From Clostridia bacterium (GTDB taxonomy: Bacteria > Bacillota > Clostridia > UMGS1883): a stretch of 64,000 bases of DNA. Below the pieces are notes generated by a model. It did not search any database, was not told where the DNA came from, and saw only the letters and a program-made list of their open reading frames with translations. The stretch spans positions 698-64,697 of the forward strand of contig JAZNYX010000025.1 in NCBI GenBank assembly GCA_045594665.1, given 5' to 3'. Both the position numbers and the translations under genes were made by a program. Every line of letters begins with the position of its first letter. The stretch's first letter is position 1. Shown piece by piece: positions 1,059-15,166 of the stretch.

Positions 1059-1315
1059 TGCTAAGCCTCCTAAAAAAGTATTTTCGCTGACTCATGCGAC
1101 GGACTGTACACGGCGCCGGGCGTTTCGCCTTTTGCCATATTAAAACCCAGAGCTCGACTCCGGGTACTACATGAATGTGGGCGCAGATGCGCAAAGCTTT
1201 ATCATGTTGTACAGTGACTGCCGCCCGGTTTCACGAACCGGACATTCTCCACGGAAAAACCTACCCATATGGTAGCAACCTCCCGCTTCATCGTCTGTCA
1301 TGTCACAGCCTTGCC

Positions 1316-4299: not shown

Positions 4300-4338
4300 T
4301 AAAACACCGCATCGAAATTCGATGCGGTGTTTGTTGTT
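4300..4338. terminator. bidirectional intrinsic terminator between mscL and the acyl-CoA synthetase gene
   Basis: aaacaccgcatcga/tcgatgcggtgttt stem flanked by A-run and T-run. Confidence 0.8.
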
Positions 4339-6035
4339 TATTGAAGAGTATTTTCCAAATCCTTTTCACGGATTGCGTTACGTCTGATTTTTCCGTTGAA
4401 GGTTTTGGGAAGCTCCGATACATATTCCACGATTCTGGGATATTTATAGGGAGCTGTATTTGTCTTGACATAGGTCTGAAGCTCTTTTGTAAGTGTATCC
4501 GAGGGTTCAAATCCTTTTGCAAGAACAATTGTTGCCTTTACGGCAAAACCACGAATCGGGTCGGGCACACCTGTTACAGCAACCTCACTTACTGCCGCAT
4601 GTTCAAGAAGAACGCTTTCAATTTCAAAAGGTCCGATTCTGTAGCCTGATGACTTGATGACGTCATCATTTCTTCCCACATAGCGGAAAAGTCCTCTTTC
4701 ATCACGATACGCGGTATCACCTGTGTGATAGAAGCCGTCGTGAAGTGCCTTCTTCGTATCTTCCATACTGAAGTTATAAGTATCAAGAAGTCCGCAGCTC
4801 TTTCTGTCACGGCTTAATACACGGATGGAGATTTCGCCCGTTGTACCTCTGGGGCAGGACTGATTATTGTTATCTAAGATATGAACATCAAACCCCGGAA
4901 CGGGAAGTCCTATTGCACCTGGAACAGGCTCTGTCCACGGATAGATAGTTGCTATACAAAGAGTGGTTTCTGTCTGTCCGAAGCCTTCATAGATTTTATG
5001 CCCCGTAGCCTCGAGCCATTTGTTATAGATTTCAGGATTAAGTGCCTCACCTGCTGTACAGCAATGTGTAAGTGACGAAAGGTCGTACTTTGAAACATCG
5101 TTAAGAAGCATCATTCTGTACATTGTGGGAGGAACGCAGAAGGTAGTAACCTTGTAATCCTGCAAAACTCCTAAGATATCTGCACCATCGAACTTGTCAA
5201 AGTCATAGACAAGCACTGCCGATTCCCCAAACCACTGTCCGTAGATTTTACCCCAAAGAGATTTAAGCCAACCTGTGTCGGAGATTGTGAAGTGAAGTCC
5301 GCCGTCCACAACCCTGTGCCAGAACACGCCTGTCATAATATGACCGAGGGGATATTTAAAGTTATGTGTGATGATTTTGGGATAGCCCGTTGTACCGGAA
5401 GAAAATGCCATAAGCATAGTATCATCGGCAGTAGTAGCCTCTTCCCCTGTGGGGCGCTGCCACTGGTCGCTTGCCATTTCGAAGCCTTCTTCGAAATCGT
5501 GCCAGCCTTCGCCTGCCTTCTTATGCTTTGTAACAAACTTGATTATGGGATGGTCATACTGCTCCTTCATTTCGTCGAAGTATTCGGTAGCCTGACCGTC
5601 ACCCGTGATAACTGCCGCCTTGATATTACCCACGTTACAGCGATAAACATAATCCTTACCTTTAAGCATATCCGTTGCCTGAACAACGATAGCACCGATT
5701 TTATGAAGTCCCAGTATGCAATACCAGAAGAAGTAGCTTCTTTTAAGGGTAAGCATTACCTTGTCACCCTTTTTGATGCCCATATACTTAAAGTAGTTTG
5801 CAGCTTTGTTGGAATTGAGCATCATATCACGGAATGTAAGATGCTTAACCTCGCTTTTGTCGTTTGAAATCCAGACCATAGCGAGCTTATCGGGCTTTTC
5901 TGTTCCCAACACATCTATTACATCATATGCAAAGTTAAAATCATCATTATAAGATAGTGTATAGTTTGTCTGTGCATCTTTAAGTGAAAGGAAATCATCT
6001 CTTGATGCACCGACAAATTTTTCGTATATTGCCAT
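4338..6035 (-). CDS. AMP-forming acyl-CoA synthetase (medium-chain/ACSM-like)
   Basis: 565 aa; FSSGTTGYPK, YGQTE, HTGDTAYRDERGLFRYVGRNDDVIKSSGYRIGPFEIE, PKTFNGKIRR adenylate-forming motifs. Confidence 0.85.
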   Translation of the reverse strand: MAIYEKFVGASRDDFLSLKDAQTNYTLSYNDDFNFAYDVIDVLGTEKPDKLAMVWISNDKSEVKHLTFRDMMLNSNKAANYFKYMGIKKGDKVMLTLKRSYFFWYCILGLHKIGAIVVQATDMLKGKDYVYRCNVGNIKAAVITGDGQATEYFDEMKEQYDHPIIKFVTKHKKAGEGWHDFEEGFEMASDQWQRPTGEEATTADDTMLMAFSSGTTGYPKIITHNFKYPLGHIMTGVFWHRVVDGGLHFTISDTGWLKSLWGKIYGQWFGESAVLVYDFDKFDGADILGVLQDYKVTTFCVPPTMYRMMLLNDVSKYDLSSLTHCCTAGEALNPEIYNKWLEATGHKIYEGFGQTETTLCIATIYPWTEPVPGAIGLPVPGFDVHILDNNNQSCPRGTTGEISIRVLSRDRKSCGLLDTYNFSMEDTKKALHDGFYHTGDTAYRDERGLFRYVGRNDDVIKSSGYRIGPFEIESVLLEHAAVSEVAVTGVPDPIRGFAVKATIVLAKGFEPSDTLTKELQTYVKTNTAPYKYPRIVEYVSELPKTFNGKIRRNAIREKDLENTLQ

Positions 6036-6073
6036 AACGGCAACTCCTCCATTTCTAAATCACAAATTCAATA

Positions 6074-6622
6074 TCATTTCATAACTACGGCTATAAACTG
6101 AGCTTCGCCGTCAATCGCCTGCTCTGCGTGAGGAACGCTTGAGTCAAAATAAACGCTGTCACCCTCCTCAAGTTCATAGGAAATGTCTCCTATAAAAAGA
6201 CGCATTTTGCCTGAAATGACATAATTGAATTCCTGACCTTCATGCCCGTGAAGCACAGGTGCATCATCATCGGGATGAATTGTAACCAAGAATGGCTCTG
6301 CTTTTTTGTTTCTGAAGGTATATGCCAGGTGCTTATAGTCGTACTCATGCTCACGCTTAACGCTGTAGCCCTGACCTTTTTTAACCATGCTGCACATAGA
6401 AAGTGTCGGCTGGTCTCCGCTAATCAGGTCAAGAACGTCCACGCCGAGAATTTCCGCAGCATTGTAAATAAAGCTGAAGGAGAAATCCATTTCGCCATTT
6501 TCATATTTTTTATATGTTTCTACGTCTTCACCAAGCTTTTGCGCCATTTCTTCGATGGATATTTCAAAGTCGTCACGAAGCGAAGCAAGACGCATTCCGA
6601 TATCTTTAATCTGTGTGTTCAT
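6074..6622 (-). CDS. XRE-family HTH regulator with C-terminal cupin domain
   Basis: 182 aa; N-terminal HTH (IGMRLASLRDDFEISIEEMAQKLG) and cupin HGHEGQEFNYVISG...VPH. Confidence 0.8.
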   Translation of the reverse strand: MNTQIKDIGMRLASLRDDFEISIEEMAQKLGEDVETYKKYENGEMDFSFSFIYNAAEILGVDVLDLISGDQPTLSMCSMVKKGQGYSVKREHEYDYKHLAYTFRNKKAEPFLVTIHPDDDAPVLHGHEGQEFNYVISGKMRLFIGDISYELEEGDSVYFDSSVPHAEQAIDGEAQFIAVVMK

Positions 6623-6687: not shown

Positions 6688-7224
6688 TTATGCCTTATAC
6701 TCGAAACCAAGTTTAACGGCTTTCATGTTAAGGTCAAACATATTCTGCTTTGTGGGGGGTACAACCTTCTGCATTGCTTTTTCAATATTTTCCTCGGGAA
6801 TGATACCGCTCTTTGCAATCATGTGACCAATCATAATCATGTTTGCAAGACCTGTAAGTCCTTCGTCGGAAGCTATCTTTGTAGCGGGAATGTAGTAGGT
6901 TTCTACATCTGTGCGCTCTACCTTTCTGTCGATAAGAGAGCTGTCGATGAAAATCTGGCCGCCTGCTTTGGTTTCGTTTTCGTACTTGTCAAGAGAAGGA
7001 AGATTCATTGCAATCAAAATGTCGGGATTTGATACAATGGGAGAACCGATTGCATTATCGCTGAGGATAATGCTGCAGTTAGCAGTACCGCCACGCATTT
7101 CGGGGCCGTAAGAAGGAAGCCAGCTTACTTCCTTGCCGTCAATAAGACCTTCGTAGGCAAGAAATTTTCCCGAAAAGAGAATTCCCTGTCCGCCGAATCC
7201 GGCAATCAAAATTTCTTTATTCAT
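6688..7224 (-). CDS. 2-oxoacid:ferredoxin oxidoreductase, gamma subunit
   Basis: 178 aa; ILIAGFGGQGILFSGKFLA...SYGPEMRGGTANCSIILS. Confidence 0.9.
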   Translation of the reverse strand: MNKEILIAGFGGQGILFSGKFLAYEGLIDGKEVSWLPSYGPEMRGGTANCSIILSDNAIGSPIVSNPDILIAMNLPSLDKYENETKAGGQIFIDSSLIDRKVERTDVETYYIPATKIASDEGLTGLANMIMIGHMIAKSGIIPEENIEKAMQKVVPPTKQNMFDLNMKAVKLGFEYKA

Positions 7225-7241
7225 AGTTCTGTTCTCCTTTC

Positions 7242-7988
7242 TTATTTCTCTTCTGCGTACTTATCTTTATATACTCCCAAGGGATAATAGGGAAGCATAT
7301 TTTCTTCAAGCCAGCCTATTGCCTTTTCGGGAGCAAGACCCCAGTTTGTGGGACAGGTTGAAAGCACCTCTACAAGCGAGAAGCCCTTACCCTCAATCTG
7401 GTTCTGGAAAGCTTTCTTGATTGCTGCCTTTGCCTTCTTTACGTTTGCAACATTATTTACCGCAACTCTTTCAAGGTATGTAGCACCGTCAACATTTGAA
7501 AGCATTTCACAAACCTTTACAGGGTAACCAACTGTCTGTACATCACGTCCGTAGGGAGAAGTCTGTGTTTTCTGACCGGGAAGTGTTGTGGGTGCCATCT
7601 GTCCGCCTGTCATACCATAGATTGCGTTGTTTACGAAAATTACTGTGATGTTTTCGCCACGCGCTGCACTATGTACTGTTTCAGCAGTACCGATAGCGGC
7701 AAGGTCACCGTCACCCTGATATGTGAATACAATGTTATTCTTATCGCTTCTCTTAACACCTGTTGCAACTGCCGGAGCACGACCGTGTGCAGCCTGCACC
7801 ATATCGCAGTTAAAATAATTGTATGTGAATACGCTACAGCCTACCGATGCAACACCGATTGTTCTTCCTGTAACGCCAAGCTCGTCAAGTGCTTCAGCTA
7901 CAAGGCGGTGAATAATACCGTGTGTACAACCGGGGCAATAATGGAGAGGTGCCGCCGTAAGCGCATTGGGTTTATCAAATACTACCAT
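7242..7988 (-). CDS. 2-oxoacid:ferredoxin oxidoreductase, beta (TPP-binding) subunit
   Basis: 248 aa; YCPGCTHGI...GDGDLAAIG...NNAIYGMTGGQ. Confidence 0.9.
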   Translation of the reverse strand: MVVFDKPNALTAAPLHYCPGCTHGIIHRLVAEALDELGVTGRTIGVASVGCSVFTYNYFNCDMVQAAHGRAPAVATGVKRSDKNNIVFTYQGDGDLAAIGTAETVHSAARGENITVIFVNNAIYGMTGGQMAPTTLPGQKTQTSPYGRDVQTVGYPVKVCEMLSNVDGATYLERVAVNNVANVKKAKAAIKKAFQNQIEGKGFSLVEVLSTCPTNWGLAPEKAIGWLEENMLPYYPLGVYKDKYAEEK

Positions 7989-9052
7989 TATTCTTTACCT
8001 CCGTTTGCTTCATAAATCTTGTTAAGAACATCTTCTGTTGTGGTAATCATACCGCCTGTACGGTTGCAAAGAAGAACTTCCTTTTTGCAACGGATAGCAA
8101 GCTCGATATCCTCAATCATCTGTCCCATGGAAAGCTCTACGCTGATAAACTTGTTAACCTTATCGGCAGCCTCATTAAGAACCTTCTTGGGGAAAGGCCA
8201 AAGTGTAATAGGTCTTATCATACCAACCTTGATACCCTCTGCTCTTGCCTGATCAATAGCATTTTTCGCTACACGGGATGCAACGCCGTATGCTACGACA
8301 CAAATCTCGGCATCGTCCATAAGATATTCTTCGTACATTGCTTCCTCTTCTTCAATTTTCTTATAACGCTCGTAGCGCTCGAAGTTAAGCTTTTCAAGCT
8401 CGTCGGGCTGAATGAAGAGAGAGTTTACGATGTTGGGCTTTCTCTCACCTTTGGTTCCTGTAAGAGCCCATGACTTGTCGTACTCATTAATTACACCCTT
8501 TTCAAGGCTAACGGGTTCCATCATCTGACCCATGGTACCGTCGGAGAGAATCATTGCAGGCATTCTGTACTTTTCTGCAAGGTCAAAGCCCTTGAACACC
8601 ATATCAACCATTTCCTGAACGCTGTTGGGAGCAAGTACAAGCAGATGGAAGTCACCGTGACCGCCGCCCTTTGTAGCCTGGAAGTAGTCTGCCTGCGAGG
8701 GCTGGATACCGCCCAGTCCGGGGCCGCCACGCTGTACGTTAATAATAAGTGCAGGAAGGTCACAGCCTGCAAGATAGCTGATACCTTCGCTCTTAAGGCT
8801 GATTCCGGGGCTGGAGGAAGAAGTCATAACCCTCTTACCTGTGGAAGCAACACCGATAACCATATTAATTGCCGCGATTTCACTTTCAGCCTGAAGGAAA
8901 ACGCCGCCCTCTGTCTTGGGCATTTTCTTTGCCATATATGCCGCAACTTCTGTCTGCGGAGTAATAGGATAACCAAAGTAATGCTTACAGCCTGCCATTA
9001 TAGCGGCTTCTGCCAAAGCTTCGTTACCTTTCATCAAAACTTTTTCAGACAT
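7988..9052 (-). CDS. 2-oxoacid:ferredoxin oxidoreductase, alpha subunit
   Basis: 354 aa; LMKGNEALAEAAIMAGCKHYFGYPITPQTE. Confidence 0.9.
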   Translation of the reverse strand: MSEKVLMKGNEALAEAAIMAGCKHYFGYPITPQTEVAAYMAKKMPKTEGGVFLQAESEIAAINMVIGVASTGKRVMTSSSSPGISLKSEGISYLAGCDLPALIINVQRGGPGLGGIQPSQADYFQATKGGGHGDFHLLVLAPNSVQEMVDMVFKGFDLAEKYRMPAMILSDGTMGQMMEPVSLEKGVINEYDKSWALTGTKGERKPNIVNSLFIQPDELEKLNFERYERYKKIEEEEAMYEEYLMDDAEICVVAYGVASRVAKNAIDQARAEGIKVGMIRPITLWPFPKKVLNEAADKVNKFISVELSMGQMIEDIELAIRCKKEVLLCNRTGGMITTTEDVLNKIYEANGGKE

Positions 9053-9075
9053 TTATTTTTCATTCCTTTCAATGA

Positions 9076-9279
9076 TTATTTCTCTACTGTGATTACGCAG
9101 TCGGGGCACATTGTTGCACAGAATGCGCAACCGATGCACTTATCCTGCTCTGTTACCTGTGCAGGATGATAGCCACGCTTGTTAAGATCATCGGAAAGTG
9201 CGACAATCTTCTTGGGACAAGCCGTTACACAAAGGCCGCAGCCTTTACACAAATCCTTATCAAAGGTTACCTTTGCCAT
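9076..9279 (-). CDS. 2-oxoacid:ferredoxin oxidoreductase, delta subunit (2x[4Fe-4S] ferredoxin)
   Basis: 67 aa with CKGCGLCVTACP and CIGCAFCATMCP. Confidence 0.9.
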   Translation of the reverse strand: MAKVTFDKDLCKGCGLCVTACPKKIVALSDDLNKRGYHPAQVTEQDKCIGCAFCATMCPDCVITVEK

Positions 9280-9281
9280 AT

Positions 9282-9971
9282 TTATTCATTCCTTTCTGCC
9301 CAGCTTTGTCTTACATAAAGCTCAATAGGCATTAAATTATCAATTTTATCCGAAAGTGATTCGTATAAATCTTTCTTTACAGTGGTCATTTTAATCGGGA
9401 TTCCTGCCTTCTCGGAAACCTCTTTGGCGTAATCCATGGAAGAAATAACATCTTCCGCTGTGGTTTCATCGCCGATATTGGAATCGTTTACTATAGCAGT
9501 AAATTTCATATGGCAGGCATTTTCAATCTCCGCCATAATTTCAAGGGTCATATCTGCGTTACGCGTAAGGGGACGAAATTTGTTGATTACAAACAAAAGT
9601 TCGTAATCGCCGTCCTCTTCTATTGCCTCGCTGTATCTGCCCAATGCGAGTGCACCGCGGTCGTCACCGCCTACATCTATTACGGCGTGAATTTCTTTAT
9701 TCTGAAGCACACCGTAGGTTTCTGCCGGAAGTGCCGGTACGTCAACATTACTGTTGGCAAATTCGGAGGAAATAAGCTGTACGCCATTTTCCTCAAGAAC
9801 TTTCATAGAATCCTTGGTACGGAAATACGGATTTACAATATCAAGGTCCGCAATAGATACCTTTTCTCTGTGCTTTTTAAGCCAGAGTGCGTAGTTTACA
9901 GCCACATTGGTTTTTCCGCTGCCGTAATGACCGCTGAAAATGGTAATACGCTTTATACTTCTACTGTCCAT
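9282..9971 (-). CDS. MinD/ParA/CooC-type P-loop NTPase
   Basis: 229 aa; Walker [16 protein letters not shown]; overlaps ilvE stop by 19 nt. Confidence 0.6.
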
Positions 9972-11020
9972 CCCATATCATCCTCACGTTTACCCCACTG
10001 GATACCTGTAAGGGTATCGTAGAGCTTCTGGCTTACTTCACCGATTTCATTGTTGTTGATAATCATTACATCATCAACGTAACGAAGCTTACCAACGGGA
10101 GAAATAACAGCCGCAGTACCTGTACCGAAGCATTCTTCAAGCTTGCCTGCCTTCTGAGCCTCGATAAGCTCTTCTGCGCTGATGCGGCGTTCTTCAACCT
10201 CATAACCCATCTTTTTGCAAAGTGCAATTACGCTGTTTCTTGTAACACCGGGAAGAATACTTCCGTTTAACATGGGGGTAACAATCTTTCCGTCAATCTT
10301 GAAGAAGATGTTCATAGCGCCAACTTCTTCGATGTACTTTCTTTCAACACCGTCAAGCCACAATACCTGAGAATAACCGTCATCATGTGCCTTTACCTGT
10401 GCGATAAGGCTTGCGGCGTAGTTACCGCCTGTCTTTGCAAAGCCCATACCGCCCTTAACGGCTCTTACATATTCGTCCTCAATCCAGATGCCTACGGGAG
10501 CAAGACCGCTTTCGTAGTATGCACCGCTGGGAGCAAGAATGATTATGAACTTATATGTCTTAGAGGGGGCAACGCCCAAAAATTCATCTGTAGCAATAAT
10601 GAAAGGACGGATGTAAAGAGATGTGCCGTCTTCTGTGGGAATCCAGTCCTCATCAACCTTTACTACTGCCTTAACAGCCTCAACGAAATCCTCTACGGGA
10701 AGCTGAGGAATGCAAAGACGGTCGTTTGTGTCGTTAGTTCTCTTTGCGTTCATGTCGGGGCGGAAAAGTCTTACCTTGCCGTCAACGCCCTTGTACGCCT
10801 TAAGTCCCTCAAACATTTCCTGACCGTAATGGAACACCATTGCGGCAGGTGACATTACAAGGTTCTGAAAGGGAACTATTCTGGGGTCATGCCATCCCGT
10901 TCCCTCGGTGTAGTCCATTACAAACATATGGTCTGTAAAAATTTTACCAAAGCCAAGCTTCTGCCCTTTTGCGGGTTTCTCCTTGGGAGTGGTGGTTTTT
11001 TCAATCTTGATATTAAGCAT
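9953..11020 (-). CDS. ilvE: branched-chain amino acid aminotransferase
   Basis: 355 aa; FTDHMF...[13 protein letters not shown]...[16 protein letters not shown]...[11 protein letters not shown]. Confidence 0.9.
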
Positions 11021-11053: not shown

Positions 11054-13516
11054 TTAATTCTTTTTAAGCCCAAGCATTTCCACGCTTTCATCACGCATTT
11101 TATACTTGAGGATTTTGCCTGCGGCATTCATGGGGAATTCTTTTACAAAAATGAAATATCGTGGTACTTTATGGCGTGCTATTGATGCATTGCCGTATTC
11201 GCGCATTTCATTTTCATCTGCTTCCTCACCCTTGTGGAGTATAATCCATGCACAGCATTCCTCGCCGTATCTTTCATCGGGAACGCCTACTACCTGGACA
11301 TCACGCACCTTGGGATTGGTAAGATAGAATTCCTCGATTTCACGGGGGTAAAGGTTTTCGCCGCCGCGAATAATCATATCCTTGAGTCTGCCCGTTACCT
11401 TAAAGTAACCATCGGCAGTTCTACAGCAGATGTCACCGGAATGAAGCCATCCATCTTTATCGATTGTCTGCGCCGTTGCTTCGGGCATTTTGTAATAGCC
11501 CTTCATTATATTAAAACCGCGGGCTATAAATTCGCCGCTTTCTCCGTCGGGAAGCTCCTCGCCCGTTTCCGGGTCTATAACCTTACACTCAACTCCGGGG
11601 AAAGGACTGCCGACTGTTTCAACACGGTGGTCAATATCCTCATTAACTTCACCCATTGTGCAGCCGGGGGAAGCCTCGGTCTGTCCATAAACGGAAATGA
11701 TTTCTTTCATGTTCATTTCATCTGCCGCACGGCGCATAAGGTCTGCCGGGCAGTTAGCACCTGCCATAATGCCTGTGCGAATGTATGAAAAGTCGGTCTT
11801 TGCAAAATCGGGATGATTGAACATTGCAATAAACATGGTGGGAACGCCGTTAAAGCAGGTAATATGCTCATCATTCACACAAGCGAGTGACGACTTGGGT
11901 GAGAAATACGGCATGGGATAAAGTGTTCCGCCGTGGGTCATGGTAGATGTCATTGAAAGCACCATACCAAAGCAATGGAACATAGGTACCTGAATCATCA
12001 TACGGTCCGCCGTGGAAAGGTCCATTCTGTCACCGATTGTCTTACCGTTATTTACGATGTTTCTGTGAGTAAGCATTACGCCCTTGGGGAAACCTGTAGT
12101 TCCCGATGTGTACTGCATATTGCATACATCGTCGGGTTTTACGAGAGATGCACGACGTCTTACTTCCTCATGAGGAATGAGACTGCTTCGTTGGAGCATC
12201 TGCTCCCATGTGAGACAGCCGTCCATAGAAAAGCCTACCGTTACAACATTACGAAGGAAAGGAAGATTTTTGGAATAAAGAGCGTCTCCCGGAGTCATCC
12301 CCTTAAGTTCGGGGCAAAGCTCCTGGATTATTTCCTTATAGTTAATATCCTTGCAATCCTCAATCATAACAAGGGTATGGGTATCTGACTGCCTGAGGAG
12401 ATATTCAATCTCATGGATTTTATATGCAGTGTTTACAGTTACCAATACTGCACCGATTTTTGTGGTTGCCCAGAAAGTAATGAACCACTGAGGAACGTTG
12501 GTTGCCCATACGGCAACGTGATCCCCTGCCTTTACTCCCATGGAAATAAGTGCCGCCGCACATTCATCAACATCGCGTCTGAACTGTGCATAAGTTCTTG
12601 TATAATCAAGGGTAGTATACTTAAATGCATATTGGTCGGGATATTTTTCTGCCATTGCATCAAGCACATCGGAGAATGTAGCATCAATTACATCATACTT
12701 TTTCCATACAAATGTGCCTGTCCTGCTGCGGTTATAATAAGCCTTGCCTGTTTCTTTCTTTTCTCTGGAAAGGCTTCCTATATAATTGGCAAAGTGAGTA
12801 AGCACGATGTCGGCATCATTCACTTCTTCATTCCATGCTACACAAATATATCCTTCATAGTTAAGAGAAGAAAGGGCGTTTATAAAGCTTGTAACAGGGA
12901 GGTCTCCCTCACCGATGAGAACTGTTTTTCCGTCTTTCATATCGCCCATTCTTGCATATTTTATATATGCACCAAGGCTCTTAATAGTGGTTTCTGCACT
13001 CTCCCCTGCTTTAAAGTAGGTTTCACGCATGTTCCATGATGCACCTATAACCGCCGAGGAAAAGAAATTTATTATATCAATTACGTTTTCCGTTTCGGAA
13101 AGGTAGCCTGCGGTTTCAAAAAGAATCTGAATGTCGGCCTCCTCCGCACGCTTTATGGCCTTTGCAAGCTTTTCGGAAAGCACTTCATTTGAGGTTTTTA
13201 CCTCGTTACGCAAAATGACCCTTTCTATTCCTGCATTACGTGCCATATCTACATATTTTACGATTTCGTCACCGTTTGCTTCTTCGCTTTCAATACTGTA
13301 GGGATATACAAGAGCAGATACAGCTAAGCTCCTGTTCACAAGCTTACGCTTTGAATCAGGGGTACGGTCAGGTCTTAAAATACTGTCGTGATGATGCTTT
13401 CTTTCTTTAAGTGCATCATATATTTCAAAGCCTGCATAACCGTAATCATACGCAAACTTACACGTATCAAGGAAGGAAGCACGGGCAACATGCTTGGTTG
13501 AAAATGTGATTTTCAT
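11054..13516 (-). CDS. fusion protein: xylose-isomerase-like TIM barrel (N, ~260 aa) + AMP-dependent acyl-CoA ligase (C, ~550 aa)
   Basis: 820 aa; C-terminal part has YTSGTTGFPKGVMLTHRN, YGQTE, SGDICCRTADGYFKVTGRLKDMIIRGGENLYPREIE; N-terminal part has an AP-endonuclease-2/TIM-barrel pattern. Confidence 0.75.
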   Translation of the reverse strand: MKITFSTKHVARASFLDTCKFAYDYGYAGFEIYDALKERKHHHDSILRPDRTPDSKRKLVNRSLAVSALVYPYSIESEEANGDEIVKYVDMARNAGIERVILRNEVKTSNEVLSEKLAKAIKRAEEADIQILFETAGYLSETENVIDIINFFSSAVIGASWNMRETYFKAGESAETTIKSLGAYIKYARMGDMKDGKTVLIGEGDLPVTSFINALSSLNYEGYICVAWNEEVNDADIVLTHFANYIGSLSREKKETGKAYYNRSRTGTFVWKKYDVIDATFSDVLDAMAEKYPDQYAFKYTTLDYTRTYAQFRRDVDECAAALISMGVKAGDHVAVWATNVPQWFITFWATTKIGAVLVTVNTAYKIHEIEYLLRQSDTHTLVMIEDCKDINYKEIIQELCPELKGMTPGDALYSKNLPFLRNVVTVGFSMDGCLTWEQMLQRSSLIPHEEVRRRASLVKPDDVCNMQYTSGTTGFPKGVMLTHRNIVNNGKTIGDRMDLSTADRMMIQVPMFHCFGMVLSMTSTMTHGGTLYPMPYFSPKSSLACVNDEHITCFNGVPTMFIAMFNHPDFAKTDFSYIRTGIMAGANCPADLMRRAADEMNMKEIISVYGQTEASPGCTMGEVNEDIDHRVETVGSPFPGVECKVIDPETGEELPDGESGEFIARGFNIMKGYYKMPEATAQTIDKDGWLHSGDICCRTADGYFKVTGRLKDMIIRGGENLYPREIEEFYLTNPKVRDVQVVGVPDERYGEECCAWIILHKGEEADENEMREYGNASIARHKVPRYFIFVKEFPMNAAGKILKYKMRDESVEMLGLKKN

Positions 13517-13517
13517 T

Positions 13518-14903
13518 TTATTCCTCCTCGAATACTATCTTGTTCAGTGCGTTAATATAAGCTCTGATACTTGCCGCTACAATATCTGTTGAAATTCCGT
13601 TGCCGCTGTAGAGCTTGCCATTGTTGCGAAGTCTTACAATCGCATTACCCAAAGCTTCTTTACCATCGGTTACGGCATGAATCTGAAAATCGTCAAGCTC
13701 GTAATGGAAGCCTATGCTCTGCTCAATGGCTCTAAATACCGAGTCAATAGGTCCGTCTCCCGTGCTGACGCCGTTTAAAATTTCATCGCCGGAGCGAAGC
13801 GTTACCTGAGACATGGAGCCTGTGAGATTGGAACAGTTTGTAGTATAGCTCTCAATATGATAGGTTGAGGGGGCTTGCATTGCAAAGCTTGCAATAAGTG
13901 CCTCCAGTTCCTTTGCTCCTACGCTGCCCTTCTTTTCACAAACCTGAGAAAGCGCCCTATAAACCTTGCCCGTATCCTCGTCGGAAAGGTCGTAGCCTAA
14001 TACATTTGCGGCATATGCCACATCTGAAAGGGTGCTGTCTGAATCAAGAATTATTTTCTTCTTTTCACTTACGTCTGCTGTTTCATATGTTTCATGATTT
14101 ATCTTGGAAAGCATCTCATCAATGCTTGCGTATATCTTTGTATTGTCAAGTCCGCTTTCAATACCGATTTTATCTCCCCTTGCCTTGATTACGCCTGCAA
14201 ACGCCCCCATGGAAAGGGCTTCTTTTCCTGCCATGGAGCATTTAAGACCGTCTGCACCTATCTTTACCGCTGAAACTGCACAAGCTACTGCCATGTCAAT
14301 TGCATTGGAAAGCTGAACATAAACGGGGATTGCTACGGCTTCCTTTACCTTTTTAACTATAGAAGCAATTTCTTCGGGAAGAGAGGTTCCTGCATCGTCA
14401 CAAATTGTAACAAGCTTTGCTCCGTTTGCCTCTGCCTCTTTCACTGCCTGAATAAGAAAATCCTCATCTGCACGTGTTGCATCAAGTGCGGCAAATTCCA
14501 CGTCGTCACAAAGCTCTTTTGCTTTCTTTGTAAGAGCGGCAATTTTGGAAAGCATTTTATCTGCTTTCACATGGTAAATGTACTCCATCTGAACAGTGGA
14601 GGTGGGAAGCTCAACCTGAAGCCTTGGGGAAGCCGCCTCTTTAACACATTCCCATGCATTTTCTACATCTTCCTCGGAAAATCCCACAGGGATTGCCACA
14701 GTGCTGTTTTTTACATTGCGGGAAATAGTCTTATATATAATAGTATCTTCGCGGACACTCTTTACAGGAGATAGCTCTACCGCATCAACCCCGAGTGCGT
14801 CGGCACAGGAGGCAATAGTAGTCTTTTCTCTGAACAATAGAGAAACAGCCCTGTCCTGTGACAGCTTTTTAAGTGTAATGTCGGTAATACTGATTTTTCT
14901 CAT
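13518..14903 (-). CDS. degenerate 2-isopropylmalate synthase (LeuA) homologue lacking catalytic motifs but keeping the C-terminal LeuA regulatory domain
   Basis: 461 aa, collinear with LeuA; DTTLRDGEQ replaced by DITLKKLSQ and HCHDDLG by VQLSNAID; C-terminal ...GNGISTDIVAASIRAYINALNKI conserved; stop/start TAAaATG coupling to the next gene. Confidence 0.7.
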   Translation of the reverse strand: MRKISITDITLKKLSQDRAVSLLFREKTTIASCADALGVDAVELSPVKSVREDTIIYKTISRNVKNSTVAIPVGFSEEDVENAWECVKEAASPRLQVELPTSTVQMEYIYHVKADKMLSKIAALTKKAKELCDDVEFAALDATRADEDFLIQAVKEAEANGAKLVTICDDAGTSLPEEIASIVKKVKEAVAIPVYVQLSNAIDMAVACAVSAVKIGADGLKCSMAGKEALSMGAFAGVIKARGDKIGIESGLDNTKIYASIDEMLSKINHETYETADVSEKKKIILDSDSTLSDVAYAANVLGYDLSDEDTGKVYRALSQVCEKKGSVGAKELEALIASFAMQAPSTYHIESYTTNCSNLTGSMSQVTLRSGDEILNGVSTGDGPIDSVFRAIEQSIGFHYELDDFQIHAVTDGKEALGNAIVRLRNNGKLYSGNGISTDIVAASIRAYINALNKIVFEEE

Positions 14904-14926: not shown

Positions 14927-14970
14927 TCGGAAAACAAAATAACCTGCGGCACTACTTGCCGCAGGTTATT
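14927..14970 (-). terminator. intrinsic terminator/attenuator 25-35 nt upstream of the LeuA-like start codon
   Basis: minus strand: aataacctgcggc-aagtagt-gccgcaggttatt followed by TTTTGTTTTCC. Confidence 0.7.
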
Positions 14971-14998: not shown

Positions 14999-15109
14999 TT
15001 ACTTAAACACACGACAAACAGCGCTATTCTTATCCGGCTTTGTAATTGCTAGAATAATAATAGCGATGAGAAGAAGTATGTTTGCTGTAAAGAAAGATTG
15101 CATATTCAT
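14999..15109 (-). CDS. 36-aa hydrophobic Ile/Leu-rich small ORF (leader peptide or small membrane peptide)
   Basis: GAGG RBS 9 nt upstream; MNMQSFFTANILLLIAIIILAITKPDKNSAVCRVFK; lies between a consensus promoter and the terminator. Confidence 0.45.
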   Translation of the reverse strand: MNMQSFFTANILLLIAIIILAITKPDKNSAVCRVFK

Positions 15110-15137: not shown

Positions 15138-15166
15138 AGTATAACCATTAGCAAAGCCTTTGTCAA
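15138..15166 (-). promoter_or_regulatory. consensus sigmaA promoter TTGACA-17-TATACT driving the leader ORF and the LeuA-like operon
   Basis: -35 at 15161..15166, -10 at 15138..15143 on the minus strand. Confidence 0.65.

What the first reader, a model, noticed from the sequence alone, without database searches (positions are those of the whole stretch)
13518..14903. LeuA homologue with every catalytic/metal motif replaced but the leucine-binding regulatory domain retained
The 461-aa protein aligns collinearly with short-form 2-isopropylmalate synthase. However, DTTLRDGEQ is DITLKKLSQ, EAGFP is ELSPV, the HxH metal site (HCHDDLG) is VQLSNAID, and GIGERAGN is AGKEALSM. The HESGIHQDG region appears reduced. 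The C-terminal LeuA allosteric domain (...LDDFQIHAVTDGKEALGNAIVRLRNNGKLYSGNGISTDIVAASIRAYINALNKI) is well preserved. The gene is translationally coupled (TAAaATG) to the TIM-barrel/ligase fusion. This points to a pseudoenzyme reused as a branched-chain amino acid sensing or regulatory subunit, rather than a synthase.
Basis: partly seen in the sequence, partly recalled or inferred. Interest (0 to 1): 0.6.

Follow-up and report, generated by a model that had tools for sequence, protein, structure and literature searches.

The report
Dead LeuA copy partnering leucine-controlled acid ligase
This gene encodes a conserved copy of the leucine-pathway enzyme LeuA that has lost its catalytic machinery but kept its leucine-binding domain; it always sits directly in front of an acyl-CoA ligase and probably acts as the leucine sensor of a gut-bacterial route that makes leucine from isovalerate.

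Summary
The gene is on the minus strand (13518-14903). It encodes a 461-aa short-form LeuA homologue. The substrate Arg, the metal-binding Asp and both His ligands are replaced. The GIGERAGN loop is shortened, and about 35-40 residues holding the catalytic-His motif are deleted. The C-terminal LeuA regulatory domain is the best conserved part.

This is a family trait. None of 105 diverse members keeps the ligand quartet, yet dN/dS is about 0.07.

In 78 of 78 related loci with enough DNA, the gene is followed within 5-66 nt (5-16 in 76) by a TIM-barrel/acyl-CoA-ligase fusion. In most relatives the pair sits behind a T-box riboswitch with a leucine codon (CUC). In this genus an Ile/Leu-rich leader peptide plus terminator takes its place, and the pair heads one operon with a branched-chain aminotransferase and a 2-oxoacid:ferredoxin oxidoreductase. 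No canonical leuA, leuB, ilvC or ilvD was found in this 90%-complete genome.

Best reading (about 0.55): a leucine-sensing, non-catalytic partner of an isovalerate-type CoA ligase, analogous to HisZ with HisG. Leucine binding and contact with the ligase are inferred, not shown.

The scan has met this family before in other genomes, with the same reading. I found no published description.

The parts
13518..14903 (-). LeuA-like pseudoenzyme CDS (461 aa plus stop)
   Evidence: ORF and translation; Pfam HMGL-like plus LeuA_dimer; AF2 model with pLDDT 89.9
14100..14903 (-). Residues 1-268: (beta/alpha)8 barrel of the IPMS type, lacking the Arg/Asp/His/His ligands
   Evidence: Superposes on IPMS N-domains 3ewb and 3eeg at 1.7-1.8 A, TM 0.91-0.92. 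K12, K13, Q197 and S199 sit at the ligand columns. dN/dS 0.08-0.11.
13869..14099 (-). Residues 269-345: truncated linker (subdomain I mostly deleted; low-confidence loop 271-279) and helical subdomain II
   Evidence: Alignment gap opposite the canonical HESGIHQDG segment; pLDDT below 50 at 271-279
13518..13868 (-). Residues 346-461 and stop: LeuA allosteric (regulatory) domain, two beta-beta-beta-alpha repeats
   Evidence: LeuA_dimer 103.9 bits. GDGPIDA, GxxAxG, GxGxSTDI and AYxxAxNK are invariant or nearly so in 105-109 members. dN/dS 0.02-0.05.
11054..13516 (-). Partner gene: 820-aa fusion of a xylose-isomerase-like TIM barrel (residues 1-265, nt 12722-13516) and an AMP-forming acyl-CoA ligase (residues 271-820)
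   Evidence: Pfam AP_endonuc_2, AMP-binding and AMP-binding_C; NCBIfam PRK12583 677 bits; directly downstream of the LeuA-like gene in 78/78 loci
14931..14967 (-). Intrinsic terminator: perfect 10-bp stem, 7-nt loop, U-run, 28 nt before the LeuA-like start
   Evidence: Read directly from the sequence
14999..15109 (-). 36-codon leader ORF in which 10 of 12 consecutive codons are Ile or Leu
   Evidence: Sequence. The same peptide occurs in the closest orthologous loci. A related Ile/Val-rich leader ending in NSA(V/F)CR occurs in the divergent clade.
15138..15166 (-). Sigma-70-type promoter TTGACA-17-TATACT
   Evidence: Read from the sequence
9953..11020 (-). Class IV (branched-chain) aminotransferase
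   Evidence: Pfam Aminotran_4, E 1.4e-29
9282..9971 (-). ParA/CbiA-type P-loop protein
   Evidence: Weak Pfam hits; conserved position next to the ferredoxin/OFOR genes in relatives
6688..9279 (-). Four-subunit 2-oxoacid:ferredoxin oxidoreductase: ferredoxin 9076-9279, alpha 7988-9052, beta 7242-7988, gamma 6688-7224
   Evidence: Pfam POR_N/PFOR_II, TPP_enzyme_C and POR; 2x[4Fe-4S]-type Cys pattern in the 67-aa ORF
4338..6622 (-). HTH-cupin protein (6074-6622) and a second AMP-forming ligase (4338-6035)
   Evidence: Pfam. Homologous units in relatives lie behind Ile- or Val-specifier T-boxes.

Best explanation
The gene encodes a non-catalytic descendant of short-form 2-isopropylmalate synthase. 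It works together with the acyl-CoA ligase encoded immediately downstream.

Proposed pathway (inferred): the ligase activates isovalerate to isovaleryl-CoA. The 2-oxoacid:ferredoxin oxidoreductase of the same operon carboxylates this reductively to 2-oxoisocaproate. The class IV aminotransferase then makes leucine.

Proposed role (inferred): the LeuA-like protein keeps the LeuA regulatory domain. It most likely dimerises through that domain, binds leucine at the dimer interface, and passes this signal to the ligase as feedback control. The dead barrel would serve as the docking scaffold, possibly against the ligase's own degenerate N-terminal TIM barrel. The logic is that of HisZ with HisG or IlvN with IlvB: a separate regulatory subunit built from a protein that already recognised the end product.

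Shown here: loss of the catalytic apparatus, conservation and purifying selection, invariable gene adjacency, and leucine-specific transcriptional control in relatives.

Inferred only: leucine binding, physical contact with the ligase, isovalerate as the substrate, and whether the effect is inhibition or activation.
For: 1. Catalytic loss. R12K, D13K, H197Q and H199S against solved IPMS. These columns vary across 105 family representatives and none keeps the quartet. The GIGERAGN loop is shortened and the catalytic-His segment deleted. The best LeuA equivalog model scores 265 bits against a cut-off of 532.

2. Not decaying. More than 7000 database relatives were found, and the best 120 all share the same Pfam architecture. 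At least 105 clusters at 50% identity exist. dN/dS is 0.05-0.08 overall, 0.08-0.11 in the barrel and 0.02-0.05 in the regulatory domain.

3. Regulatory domain intact. Six of the 8 invariant columns lie in it, as do 37 of the 53 columns that are at least 90% conserved (residues 303-456). These include the Gly-rich caps before both helices, G382-x-G384-P and G434-x-G436-x-S-T-D. PMC11057210 states that in M. tuberculosis IPMS the leucine carboxylate sits between the N-termini of two helices, in a pocket at the regulatory-domain dimer interface.

4. Partner. The TIM-ligase gene follows within 5-66 nt (5-16 nt in 76) in 78 of 78 loci that extend far enough.

5. Rate covariation. LeuA-like and TIM-domain distances correlate at r 0.94, partial 0.79 given the ligase domain. 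LeuA-like against the ligase domain, given TIM, is 0.12.

6. Leucine link. T-box leaders lie upstream of the pair in 17 of 21 loci scanned with Rfam. CUC sits at the specifier position in all 10 printed alignments of leaders that precede the pair. A structural parse gives 58 CUC and 1 CUG of 60. Neighbouring HTH-cupin/ligase units carry AUC (Ile) or GUA (Val) specifiers.

7. Ligases without it. A third clade of TIM-ligases has no LeuA-like gene within the roughly 6 kb searched on either side, and all but one are still behind a Leu T-box. In one relative the TIM-ligase is the last gene of a leuA-leuC-leuD-leuB operon. The LeuA-like protein is therefore an add-on, not an obligatory catalytic part.

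8. Need for the pathway. The own genome (1.82 Mb, 90% complete) has no canonical leuA, no ilvC, no ilvD and no leuB above cut-off. Closely related genomes that are 92-96% complete also lack ilvC.

9. Established physiology. Rumen bacteria make leucine by carboxylation of isovalerate followed by amination (PMC7356843).
Against: No result here shows leucine binding or a protein-protein contact.

The most conserved barrel residues (D8, T10, S102, E107, Y108, K113, D141, R144, D169) lie mostly at or just after the C-terminal ends of the strands, which is the old active-site face. That face may still bind a small molecule rather than a protein.

The regulatory domain is also the dimerisation domain of LeuA, so its conservation could reflect dimerisation alone.

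T-box control already provides a leucine signal, so a second sensor is not logically required.

No fused LeuA-like/ligase protein was found, although that search is weak.

The ligase's substrate is not established. In the relative with leuABCD it could equally be isobutyrate, feeding 2-oxoisovalerate into the pathway.
Confidence: 0.55

Rival explanations
1. A structural or activating subunit without leucine sensing. The dead LeuA is needed for folding, oligomerisation or activity of the TIM-ligase, or to tether it to the oxidoreductase. The regulatory domain would be conserved only because it makes the dimer.
For: Strict adjacency. Rate covariation with the TIM domain. In this clade the TIM domain has itself lost its putative metal ligands, which suggests a structural role for both barrels. 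LeuA_dimer is a dimerisation domain by definition.
Against: The residues that are invariant in the regulatory domain are exactly the Gly-rich helix caps that hold the ligand carboxylate in IPMS, not only interface residues. This accessory protein accompanies only the Leu-controlled ligase, whereas the Ile- and Val-controlled ligases use a different accessory (HTH-cupin). Solo TIM-ligases exist without it.
Confidence: 0.2
2. The barrel still binds a metabolite or carries out a new metal-independent reaction. It might hold 2-oxoisocaproate, isovalerate or isovaleryl-CoA and hand it between the ligase and the oxidoreductase, as the related DmpG aldolase channels its product to DmpF.
For: The conserved barrel residues lie at or just after the C-terminal strand ends, the old active-site face, and include D8, T10, S102, D141, R144 and D169, which are shared with LeuA. 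Barrel dN/dS is only about 0.1. DmpG-type aldolase/dehydrogenase complexes appear among the fold matches.
Against: The former ligand positions are not replaced by a new fixed set. They vary freely (R/K/C at position 12; E/Q/K at 13; E/Q/S at 197). The lid that closes the LeuA active site and carries the catalytic His is deleted. Ligases of the solo clade manage without this protein.
Confidence: 0.12
3. A leucine-responsive RNA- or DNA-binding regulator. It would be an enzyme homologue turned attenuation protein, as PyrR is, and would act on the leader of its own operon.
For: It is the first gene behind a regulatory leader in all the loci examined. It retains a putative amino-acid-binding domain.
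Against: No nucleic-acid-binding domain was found. The leaders are complete T-boxes or a leader-peptide attenuator, and neither needs a protein factor. The protein persists unchanged when the T-box is exchanged for a leader peptide. Tight coupling to the ligase points to a protein partner.
Confidence: 0.04
4. A decaying remnant of leuA, left over after loss of the ilv/leu pathway and without function.
For: The genome lacks the rest of the pathway, and the catalytic residues are gone.
Against: The frame is intact in the best 120 listed relatives. Identity across bacterial families is 51-95%. dN/dS is about 0.07. Position and coupling to the ligase are conserved in 78/78 loci.
Confidence: 0.01

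Closest known systems
2-isopropylmalate synthase, short bacterial form (LeuA/IPMS; DRE-TIM metallolyase; e.g. PDB 3rmj, 3ewb, 3eeg; M. tuberculosis 1sr9/3fig for the full-length architecture)
   Same: Homologous over its whole length. It has the same barrel (rmsd 1.7-1.8 A), the same helical subdomain II and the same two-repeat regulatory domain with all its hallmark motifs.
   Different: The substrate Arg, metal Asp and both His are lost. The GIGERAGN loop is shortened and the subdomain I catalytic-His segment is deleted. It scores far below every curated LeuA cut-off. It is not in an ilv/leu context but in front of an acyl-CoA ligase.
HisZ, the regulatory subunit of short-form ATP phosphoribosyltransferase HisG (a catalytically inactive histidyl-tRNA synthetase paralogue; from established knowledge)
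   Same: The same proposed logic: a dead paralogue of an enzyme that recognises the pathway's end product, encoded next to the catalytic subunit and giving it end-product control.
   Different: Unrelated fold and pathway. For HisZ, binding and regulation are experimentally established. Here they are inferred.
IlvN/IlvH, the small regulatory subunit of acetohydroxyacid synthase (from established knowledge)
   Same: A separate polypeptide with a small beta-alpha-beta-type amino-acid-binding domain that dimerises, binds a branched-chain amino acid at the interface and modulates an adjacent-gene enzyme.
   Different: An ACT-domain protein with no dead catalytic domain. It regulates the de novo pathway, not fatty-acid activation.
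Citramalate synthase CimA and methylthioalkylmalate synthase (LeuA relatives; PDB 3ble, 3f6g, 6e1j)
   Same: The same superfamily and barrel. CimA shares the regulatory domain, which there binds isoleucine.
   Different: Both are active enzymes with the full ligand set. MAM has lost the regulatory domain, the opposite of what happened here.

Membership tests
2-isopropylmalate synthase (LeuA, DRE-TIM metallolyase) | HMGL-like (beta/alpha)8 barrel fold | tested here: met
   Pfam PF00682, E 4.5e-31. The AF2 barrel superposes on 3ewb and 3eeg at 1.7-1.8 A.
2-isopropylmalate synthase (LeuA, DRE-TIM metallolyase) | Arg (2-oxoacid binding) and Asp (metal ligand) after strand 1 (LRDGxQ) | tested here: not met
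   K12-K13 in the window protein. The columns are variable in the family, and 0 of 105 members keep R-D together with H-H.
2-isopropylmalate synthase (LeuA, DRE-TIM metallolyase) | HxH metal ligands after strand 7 | tested here: not met
   Q197 and S199. The family has E/Q/S at the first position and mostly S at the second. Even the members nearest canonical LeuA in the tree lack them.
2-isopropylmalate synthase (LeuA, DRE-TIM metallolyase) | Subdomain I segment with the catalytic His (HxSGIHQDG), and the GIGERAGN loop | tested here: not met
   The segment is absent and the loop is shortened by 4 residues in all family members shown.
2-isopropylmalate synthase (LeuA, DRE-TIM metallolyase) | C-terminal LeuA allosteric/dimerisation domain | tested here: met
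   PF08502, 103.9 bits, covering 4-130 of 131 positions. Hallmark motifs are invariant.
2-isopropylmalate synthase (LeuA, DRE-TIM metallolyase) | Score above the curated NCBIfam equivalog cut-off | tested here: not met
   Best results are 264.6 bits against cut-off 532 (NF002086) and 242.4 against 598.7 (TIGR00973).
2-isopropylmalate synthase (LeuA, DRE-TIM metallolyase) | Condensation of acetyl-CoA with 2-oxoisovalerate | not testable with these tools
   Needs an enzyme assay. The sequence predicts none.
Pseudoenzyme regulatory subunit (HisZ/IlvN-type logic) | Catalytic residues lost while the gene stays under purifying selection | tested here: met
   dN/dS 0.05-0.08 in unsaturated pairs; family-wide ligand loss.
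Pseudoenzyme regulatory subunit (HisZ/IlvN-type logic) | Constant genomic association with one catalytic partner | tested here: met
   78/78 loci have the TIM-ligase directly downstream, with a gap of 5-66 nt, 5-16 in 76 of them. All 27 relatives' genomes with a strong LeuA-like match also have a TIM-domain match.
Pseudoenzyme regulatory subunit (HisZ/IlvN-type logic) | Physical complex with the catalytic subunit | not testable with these tools
   Needs co-purification or a structure. Only indirect rate covariation is available.
Pseudoenzyme regulatory subunit (HisZ/IlvN-type logic) | Binds the pathway end product and changes the partner's activity | not testable with these tools
   Needs ITC or DSF and kinetics. 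The conserved helix-cap motifs are compatible with it.
Leucine T-box regulon | T-box leader with a Leu specifier upstream of the gene | tested here: not met
   The window has no T-box. An Ile/Leu-rich leader ORF and terminator stand in its place. In relatives the feature is met: 17 of 21 loci by Rfam, with CUC in all 10 printed alignments of leaders preceding the pair, and 59 of 60 parsed leaders carry a Leu codon.

The most novel reading that the evidence does not exclude
The LeuA-like protein and the ligase's N-terminal TIM barrel are two dead barrels. In this clade the TIM barrel has also lost its putative metal ligands. Together they would form a leucine-gated allosteric module on an isovalerate-CoA ligase, possibly within a larger ligase/oxidoreductase/aminotransferase assembly. 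This would be a previously undescribed type of feedback control. It would act on fatty-acid activation rather than on a de novo pathway enzyme, and it would be the missing genetic basis for the long-known synthesis of leucine from isovalerate in rumen and gut anaerobes.
Probability: 0.3. Interest if true: 0.75.

Novelty: new variant of a known kind. Interest (0 to 1): 0.62.

Why it matters
Rumen and gut anaerobes have been known for decades to need branched short-chain fatty acids and to turn isovalerate into leucine. The genes for this route, and its regulation, are poorly defined.

This family is found in Acutalibacteraceae, Oscillospiraceae, Christensenellaceae and Ruminococcaceae from animal guts, and NCBI labels it only 'hypothetical protein'. 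It marks a leucine-controlled module that appears to be that route.

If the dead LeuA is the leucine sensor of the ligase, three things follow:
- It would be a clear bacterial example of a pseudoenzyme reused as an allosteric subunit.
- It would explain how organisms with no detectable ilv/leu pathway balance leucine supply.
- It would offer a ready-made leucine-binding module for biosensor work.

The proposal is directly testable with two recombinant proteins.

Tried and rejected
Complex prediction (LeuA-like alignment A3 with TIM-domain alignment A2): no verdict. The score was 0.21 against a mark of 0.32, and the controls were not run. It is not used either way.

Search for fused, longer forms of the protein: none found. 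The tool itself rates this as weak evidence.

RNA evidence: no RNA holder listed. One bovine-gut run labelled RNA-Seq (the label is a guess) holds contigs of a roughly 90-94% identical relative. One of these spans the LeuA-like/ligase junction. Contigs cannot show transcripts, so this is not used.

Papers that would give the exact leucine-contact residues of M. tuberculosis LeuA (Koon 2004, de Carvalho 2009, Casey 2014) are not held. Pocket conservation is therefore argued at motif level only, supported by PMC11057210.

In-situ decay of an operonic leuA: the leuA that shares an operon with a TIM-ligase in one relative is the long form (NF002991, 778 bits). The pseudoenzyme resembles the short form. 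That origin is therefore not supported.

Anti-correlation with the de novo pathway: 27 of 28 genomes with the pair lack ilvC, but so do 10 of 13 genomes without it. This is uninformative, and related genomes are not independent samples.

Typing the window's second ligase as Ile-type or Val-type by identity: 48-54% against 44-51%, not decisive.

Literature searches for a prior description found nothing on this family.

A maximum-likelihood tree did not finish in time, so a FastTree was used instead.
Full report
**What is there.** The ORF at 13518-14903 lies on the minus strand and encodes 461 aa. Pfam finds an HMGL-like barrel (residues 4-227, E 4.5e-31) and the LeuA allosteric/dimerisation domain (330-456, E 7.9e-30). 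Every NCBIfam 2-isopropylmalate synthase model matches, but far below its curated cut-off. The best is 264.6 bits against 532.

In HMMER alignments to solved IPMS catalytic domains (3rmj, 3ewb, 3eeg), K12-K13 stand where LeuA has the substrate Arg and the metal Asp. Q197 and S199 stand where it has the two His of HxH. The stop of this gene and the start of the next read TAA-A-ATG, with a GAGGAGG ribosome site inside the last codons.

**A family trait, not an accident.** An exhaustive profile-free search returned 292 representatives (50%-identity clusters) at E<=1e-30. More than 100 of these are full-length proteins of 450-500 aa down to about 34% identity, ranking ahead of canonical LeuAs of about 500 aa. 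I aligned 105 family members with six canonical short LeuAs.
- The four ligand columns are variable (R/K/C; E/Q/K; E/Q/S; mostly S), and no member keeps the quartet.
- The GIGERAGN loop is 4 residues shorter.
- The segment of about 35-40 residues that carries the catalytic His of subdomain I is missing in all members shown.
- In a FastTree the six canonical enzymes form one clade (support 100). The family members nearest to them still lack the Asp and the HxH.

**The regulatory domain is the best conserved part.** Six of 8 invariant columns lie in the C-terminal third, as do 37 of the 53 columns that are at least 90% conserved. The motifs GDGPIDA, GxxAxG, GxGxSTDI and AYxxAxNK are identical to canonical LeuA.

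In the AlphaFold2 model (pLDDT 89.9) the two Gly-rich motifs cap the N-termini of the two helices of the beta-beta-beta-alpha repeats. According to PMC11057210, that is where the leucine carboxylate sits in M. tuberculosis IPMS, in a pocket at the regulatory-domain dimer interface.

The modelled barrel superposes on IPMS N-domains at 1.7-1.8 A.

The gene is under strong purifying selection. dN/dS is 0.05-0.08 overall in unsaturated pairs, 0.08-0.11 in the barrel and 0.02-0.05 in the regulatory domain. A decaying pseudogene is therefore excluded.

The conserved barrel residues (D8, T10, P100, S102, E107, Y108, K113, D141, R144, D169) lie mostly at or just after the C-terminal ends of the strands, the former active-site face. 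That face is still used for something.

**Context in the window.** Reading the minus strand 5' to 3':
- a TTGACA-17-TATACT promoter;
- a 36-codon leader ORF with 10 Ile/Leu in 12 consecutive codons;
- a perfect 10-bp terminator hairpin with a U-run;
- the LeuA-like gene;
- an 820-aa fusion of a xylose-isomerase-like TIM barrel and an AMP-forming acyl-CoA ligase (PRK12583-type, 677 bits);
- a class IV aminotransferase;
- a ParA/CbiA-type P-loop protein;
- a ferredoxin and the alpha, beta and gamma subunits of a 2-oxoacid:ferredoxin oxidoreductase;
- an HTH-cupin protein;
- a second ligase.

The assembly (1.82 Mb, 90% complete) holds only three HMGL-like genes: this one; an oxaloacetate decarboxylase alpha subunit; and a 472-aa synthase with intact RDGQQ/HGH/GIGERTGN motifs but no regulatory domain, which reaches no LeuA or NifV cut-off. 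PF08502 hits only this gene. There is no ilvC, no ilvD, and no leuB above cut-off. Closely related genomes that are 92-96% complete also lack ilvC.

**Context elsewhere.** More than 590 loci in species-representative genomes encode relatives. Among the 80 best loci, the named taxa are Acutalibacteraceae, Oscillospiraceae, Christensenellaceae and Ruminococcaceae, and the named hosts are sheep, goat, deer and water buffalo. NCBI calls the protein 'hypothetical'.
- In 78 of the 80 best loci the TIM-ligase follows directly, with a gap of 5-66 nt (5-16 nt in 76). The other two contigs end too early to tell.
- The ligase domain is much more conserved (77-98% identity to the window) than the LeuA-like protein and the TIM domain (51-96% each).
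- Pairwise distances of the LeuA-like protein track those of the TIM domain (r 0.94; partial 0.79 given the ligase domain). They do not track the ligase domain once TIM is accounted for (0.12). This is compatible with co-evolution, but it is weak evidence because the domains differ in rate.
- Frequent further neighbours are the aminotransferase/P-loop/ferredoxin/oxidoreductase block and one or two HTH-cupin-plus-ligase units.

**The leucine link.** Outside this genus the pair is preceded by a T-box riboswitch. Rfam finds one directly upstream in 17 of 21 loci scanned. In all 10 printed alignments of leaders that precede the pair, CUC (Leu) lies at the specifier position.

I also parsed the leaders with a structural rule: the codon is taken as the triplet just before the 3' strand of the basal Stem I helix, and a T-box sequence must lie downstream. 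This gives 58 CUC and 1 CUG among 60 leaders in front of the LeuA-like gene. The HTH-cupin/ligase units carry AUC (Ile, 13) or GUA (Val, 13). The locus therefore holds amino-acid-specific ligase modules, and the dead LeuA belongs to the leucine one.

In the window's genus the T-box is replaced by the Ile/Leu-rich leader peptide. A related Ile/Val-rich peptide with the same NSA(V/F)CR ending occurs in a divergent clade of the same genus that has the same operon.

**A third clade without the LeuA-like gene.** In 11 relatives without the pair, a more distant TIM-ligase (TIM 30-34% identical, ligase 66-68%) has no LeuA-like gene within the roughly 6 kb searched on either side in the eight loci fetched. 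Seven of these eight are again behind a CUC T-box by my structural rule, and Rfam confirms six above gathering score. In the eighth, it is the last gene of a leuA(long form)-leuC-leuD-leuB operon, with all four above or at curated cut-offs.

Three conclusions follow:
- The ligase itself is tied to leucine supply.
- The LeuA-like protein is an add-on, not an obligatory catalytic part.
- It did not arise by decay of that long-form leuA, because it resembles short-form LeuA.

In the solo and divergent clades the TIM domain keeps an E...D-HH...HxH-KD...LEW pattern. By its order this matches the E-D-H-E metal ligands of xylose-isomerase-like barrels. That assignment is from my own knowledge and was not tested structurally. 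In the window's clade three of the four positions are replaced. This clade therefore appears to carry two dead barrels on one live ligase.

**Interpretation.** Rumen bacteria are known to make leucine by carboxylation of isovalerate followed by amination (PMC7356843). Ligase, oxidoreductase and aminotransferase are the three activities this route needs. Their placement under leucine-specific control, in a genome without detectable ilv/leu genes, makes it the likely function of the operon (inference).

Within that route, the most economical role for a LeuA derivative that keeps only scaffold and regulatory domain is a leucine-sensing partner of the ligase. This is the HisZ/HisG or IlvN/IlvB logic. 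I put it at about 0.55.

The main rivals are:
- a structural or activating subunit that does not sense leucine (0.2);
- a barrel that still binds or channels a metabolite (0.12);
- a leucine-responsive nucleic-acid-binding regulator (0.04).

Neither leucine binding nor protein contact was shown. The one complex prediction gave no verdict.

**Novelty.** I found no paper describing this family. The scan's own records show it was met before in at least seven other genomes, with five follow-ups that reached the same reading. I consulted these only after obtaining the results above, and they are not independent evidence.

What this window adds:
- a T-box exchanged for a leader-peptide attenuator;
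- the whole route fused into one operon;
- no ilv/leu genes detected in the genome;
- the comparison of three clades, which shows the LeuA-like protein is an accessory and that the TIM domain degenerated after it was acquired.

Noticed in passing
window 12722-13516 (-); L018, L019, L021; L109-L116: The ligase's N-terminal TIM barrel keeps an E / D-HH / HxH-KD / LEW pattern in the 'solo' and divergent clades. In the window's clade it reads E / N-R / Y-R-GD / AW. By motif order, three of four putative metal ligands are therefore lost, and this domain looks like a second pseudoenzyme.
   Followed up: partly
L109-L116 (relatives G026-G038): A third clade of TIM-ligase fusions (842-887 aa) has no LeuA-like gene in the surrounding DNA searched, and all but one are directly behind a Leu (CUC) T-box. 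In G032 (L112) the fusion is the last gene of a leuA(long)-leuC-leuD-leuB operon.
   Followed up: yes
L036, L039, L040, L097, L110 and others; window 4338-6622 (-): HTH-cupin plus AMP-ligase units (separate or fused) carry their own T-boxes, with Ile (AUC, 13) or Val (GUA, 13) specifiers. This suggests one dedicated ligase module per branched-chain amino acid. The window's single unit could not be typed by identity.
   Followed up: partly
window 14999-15109 (-); L018, L020, L022, L028-L032, L102: The leader peptides that replace the T-box in this genus share a hydrophobic Ile/Leu/Val run and a conserved C-terminal NSA(V/F)CR motif across two clades whose LeuA-like proteins are only 41-46% identical. 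The motif may reflect an arrest peptide or an overlapping RNA structure.
   Followed up: partly
own genome contig C9 (L002 1291-2709 +): A 472-aa HMGL-like synthase with intact RDGQQ, HGH and GIGERTGN motifs but no LeuA_dimer domain, below all LeuA/NifV cut-offs. It sits next to a GntR-type regulator, and an isocitrate-dehydrogenase-like gene lies about 3 kb away. It is possibly a Re-citrate-synthase-type enzyme (from memory, untested).
   Followed up: partly
window 9282-9971 (-): A ParA/CbiA-type P-loop gene is conserved between the aminotransferase (or ligase) and the ferredoxin/oxidoreductase genes in many relatives. It could be an Fe-S cluster carrier for the oxidoreductase.
   Followed up: no
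L074 10798-10969; L066 3634-3718; L100 12267-12343: In relatives, a lysine riboswitch lies directly after the TIM-ligase gene. A c-di-GMP-I riboswitch and a Gut-1 RNA lie nearby in other loci.
   Followed up: no
window 1218-1300 (-): An S10-Clostridia ribosomal protein leader (Rfam RF03136, 58.9 bits) is the only Rfam family above gathering score in the window.
   Followed up: no
window 13221-13751: A 539-nt contig from a bovine-gut run labelled RNA-Seq spans the LeuA-like/ligase junction in a roughly 94% identical relative. The run's RNA status is a guess, so this says nothing firm about co-transcription.
   Followed up: partly
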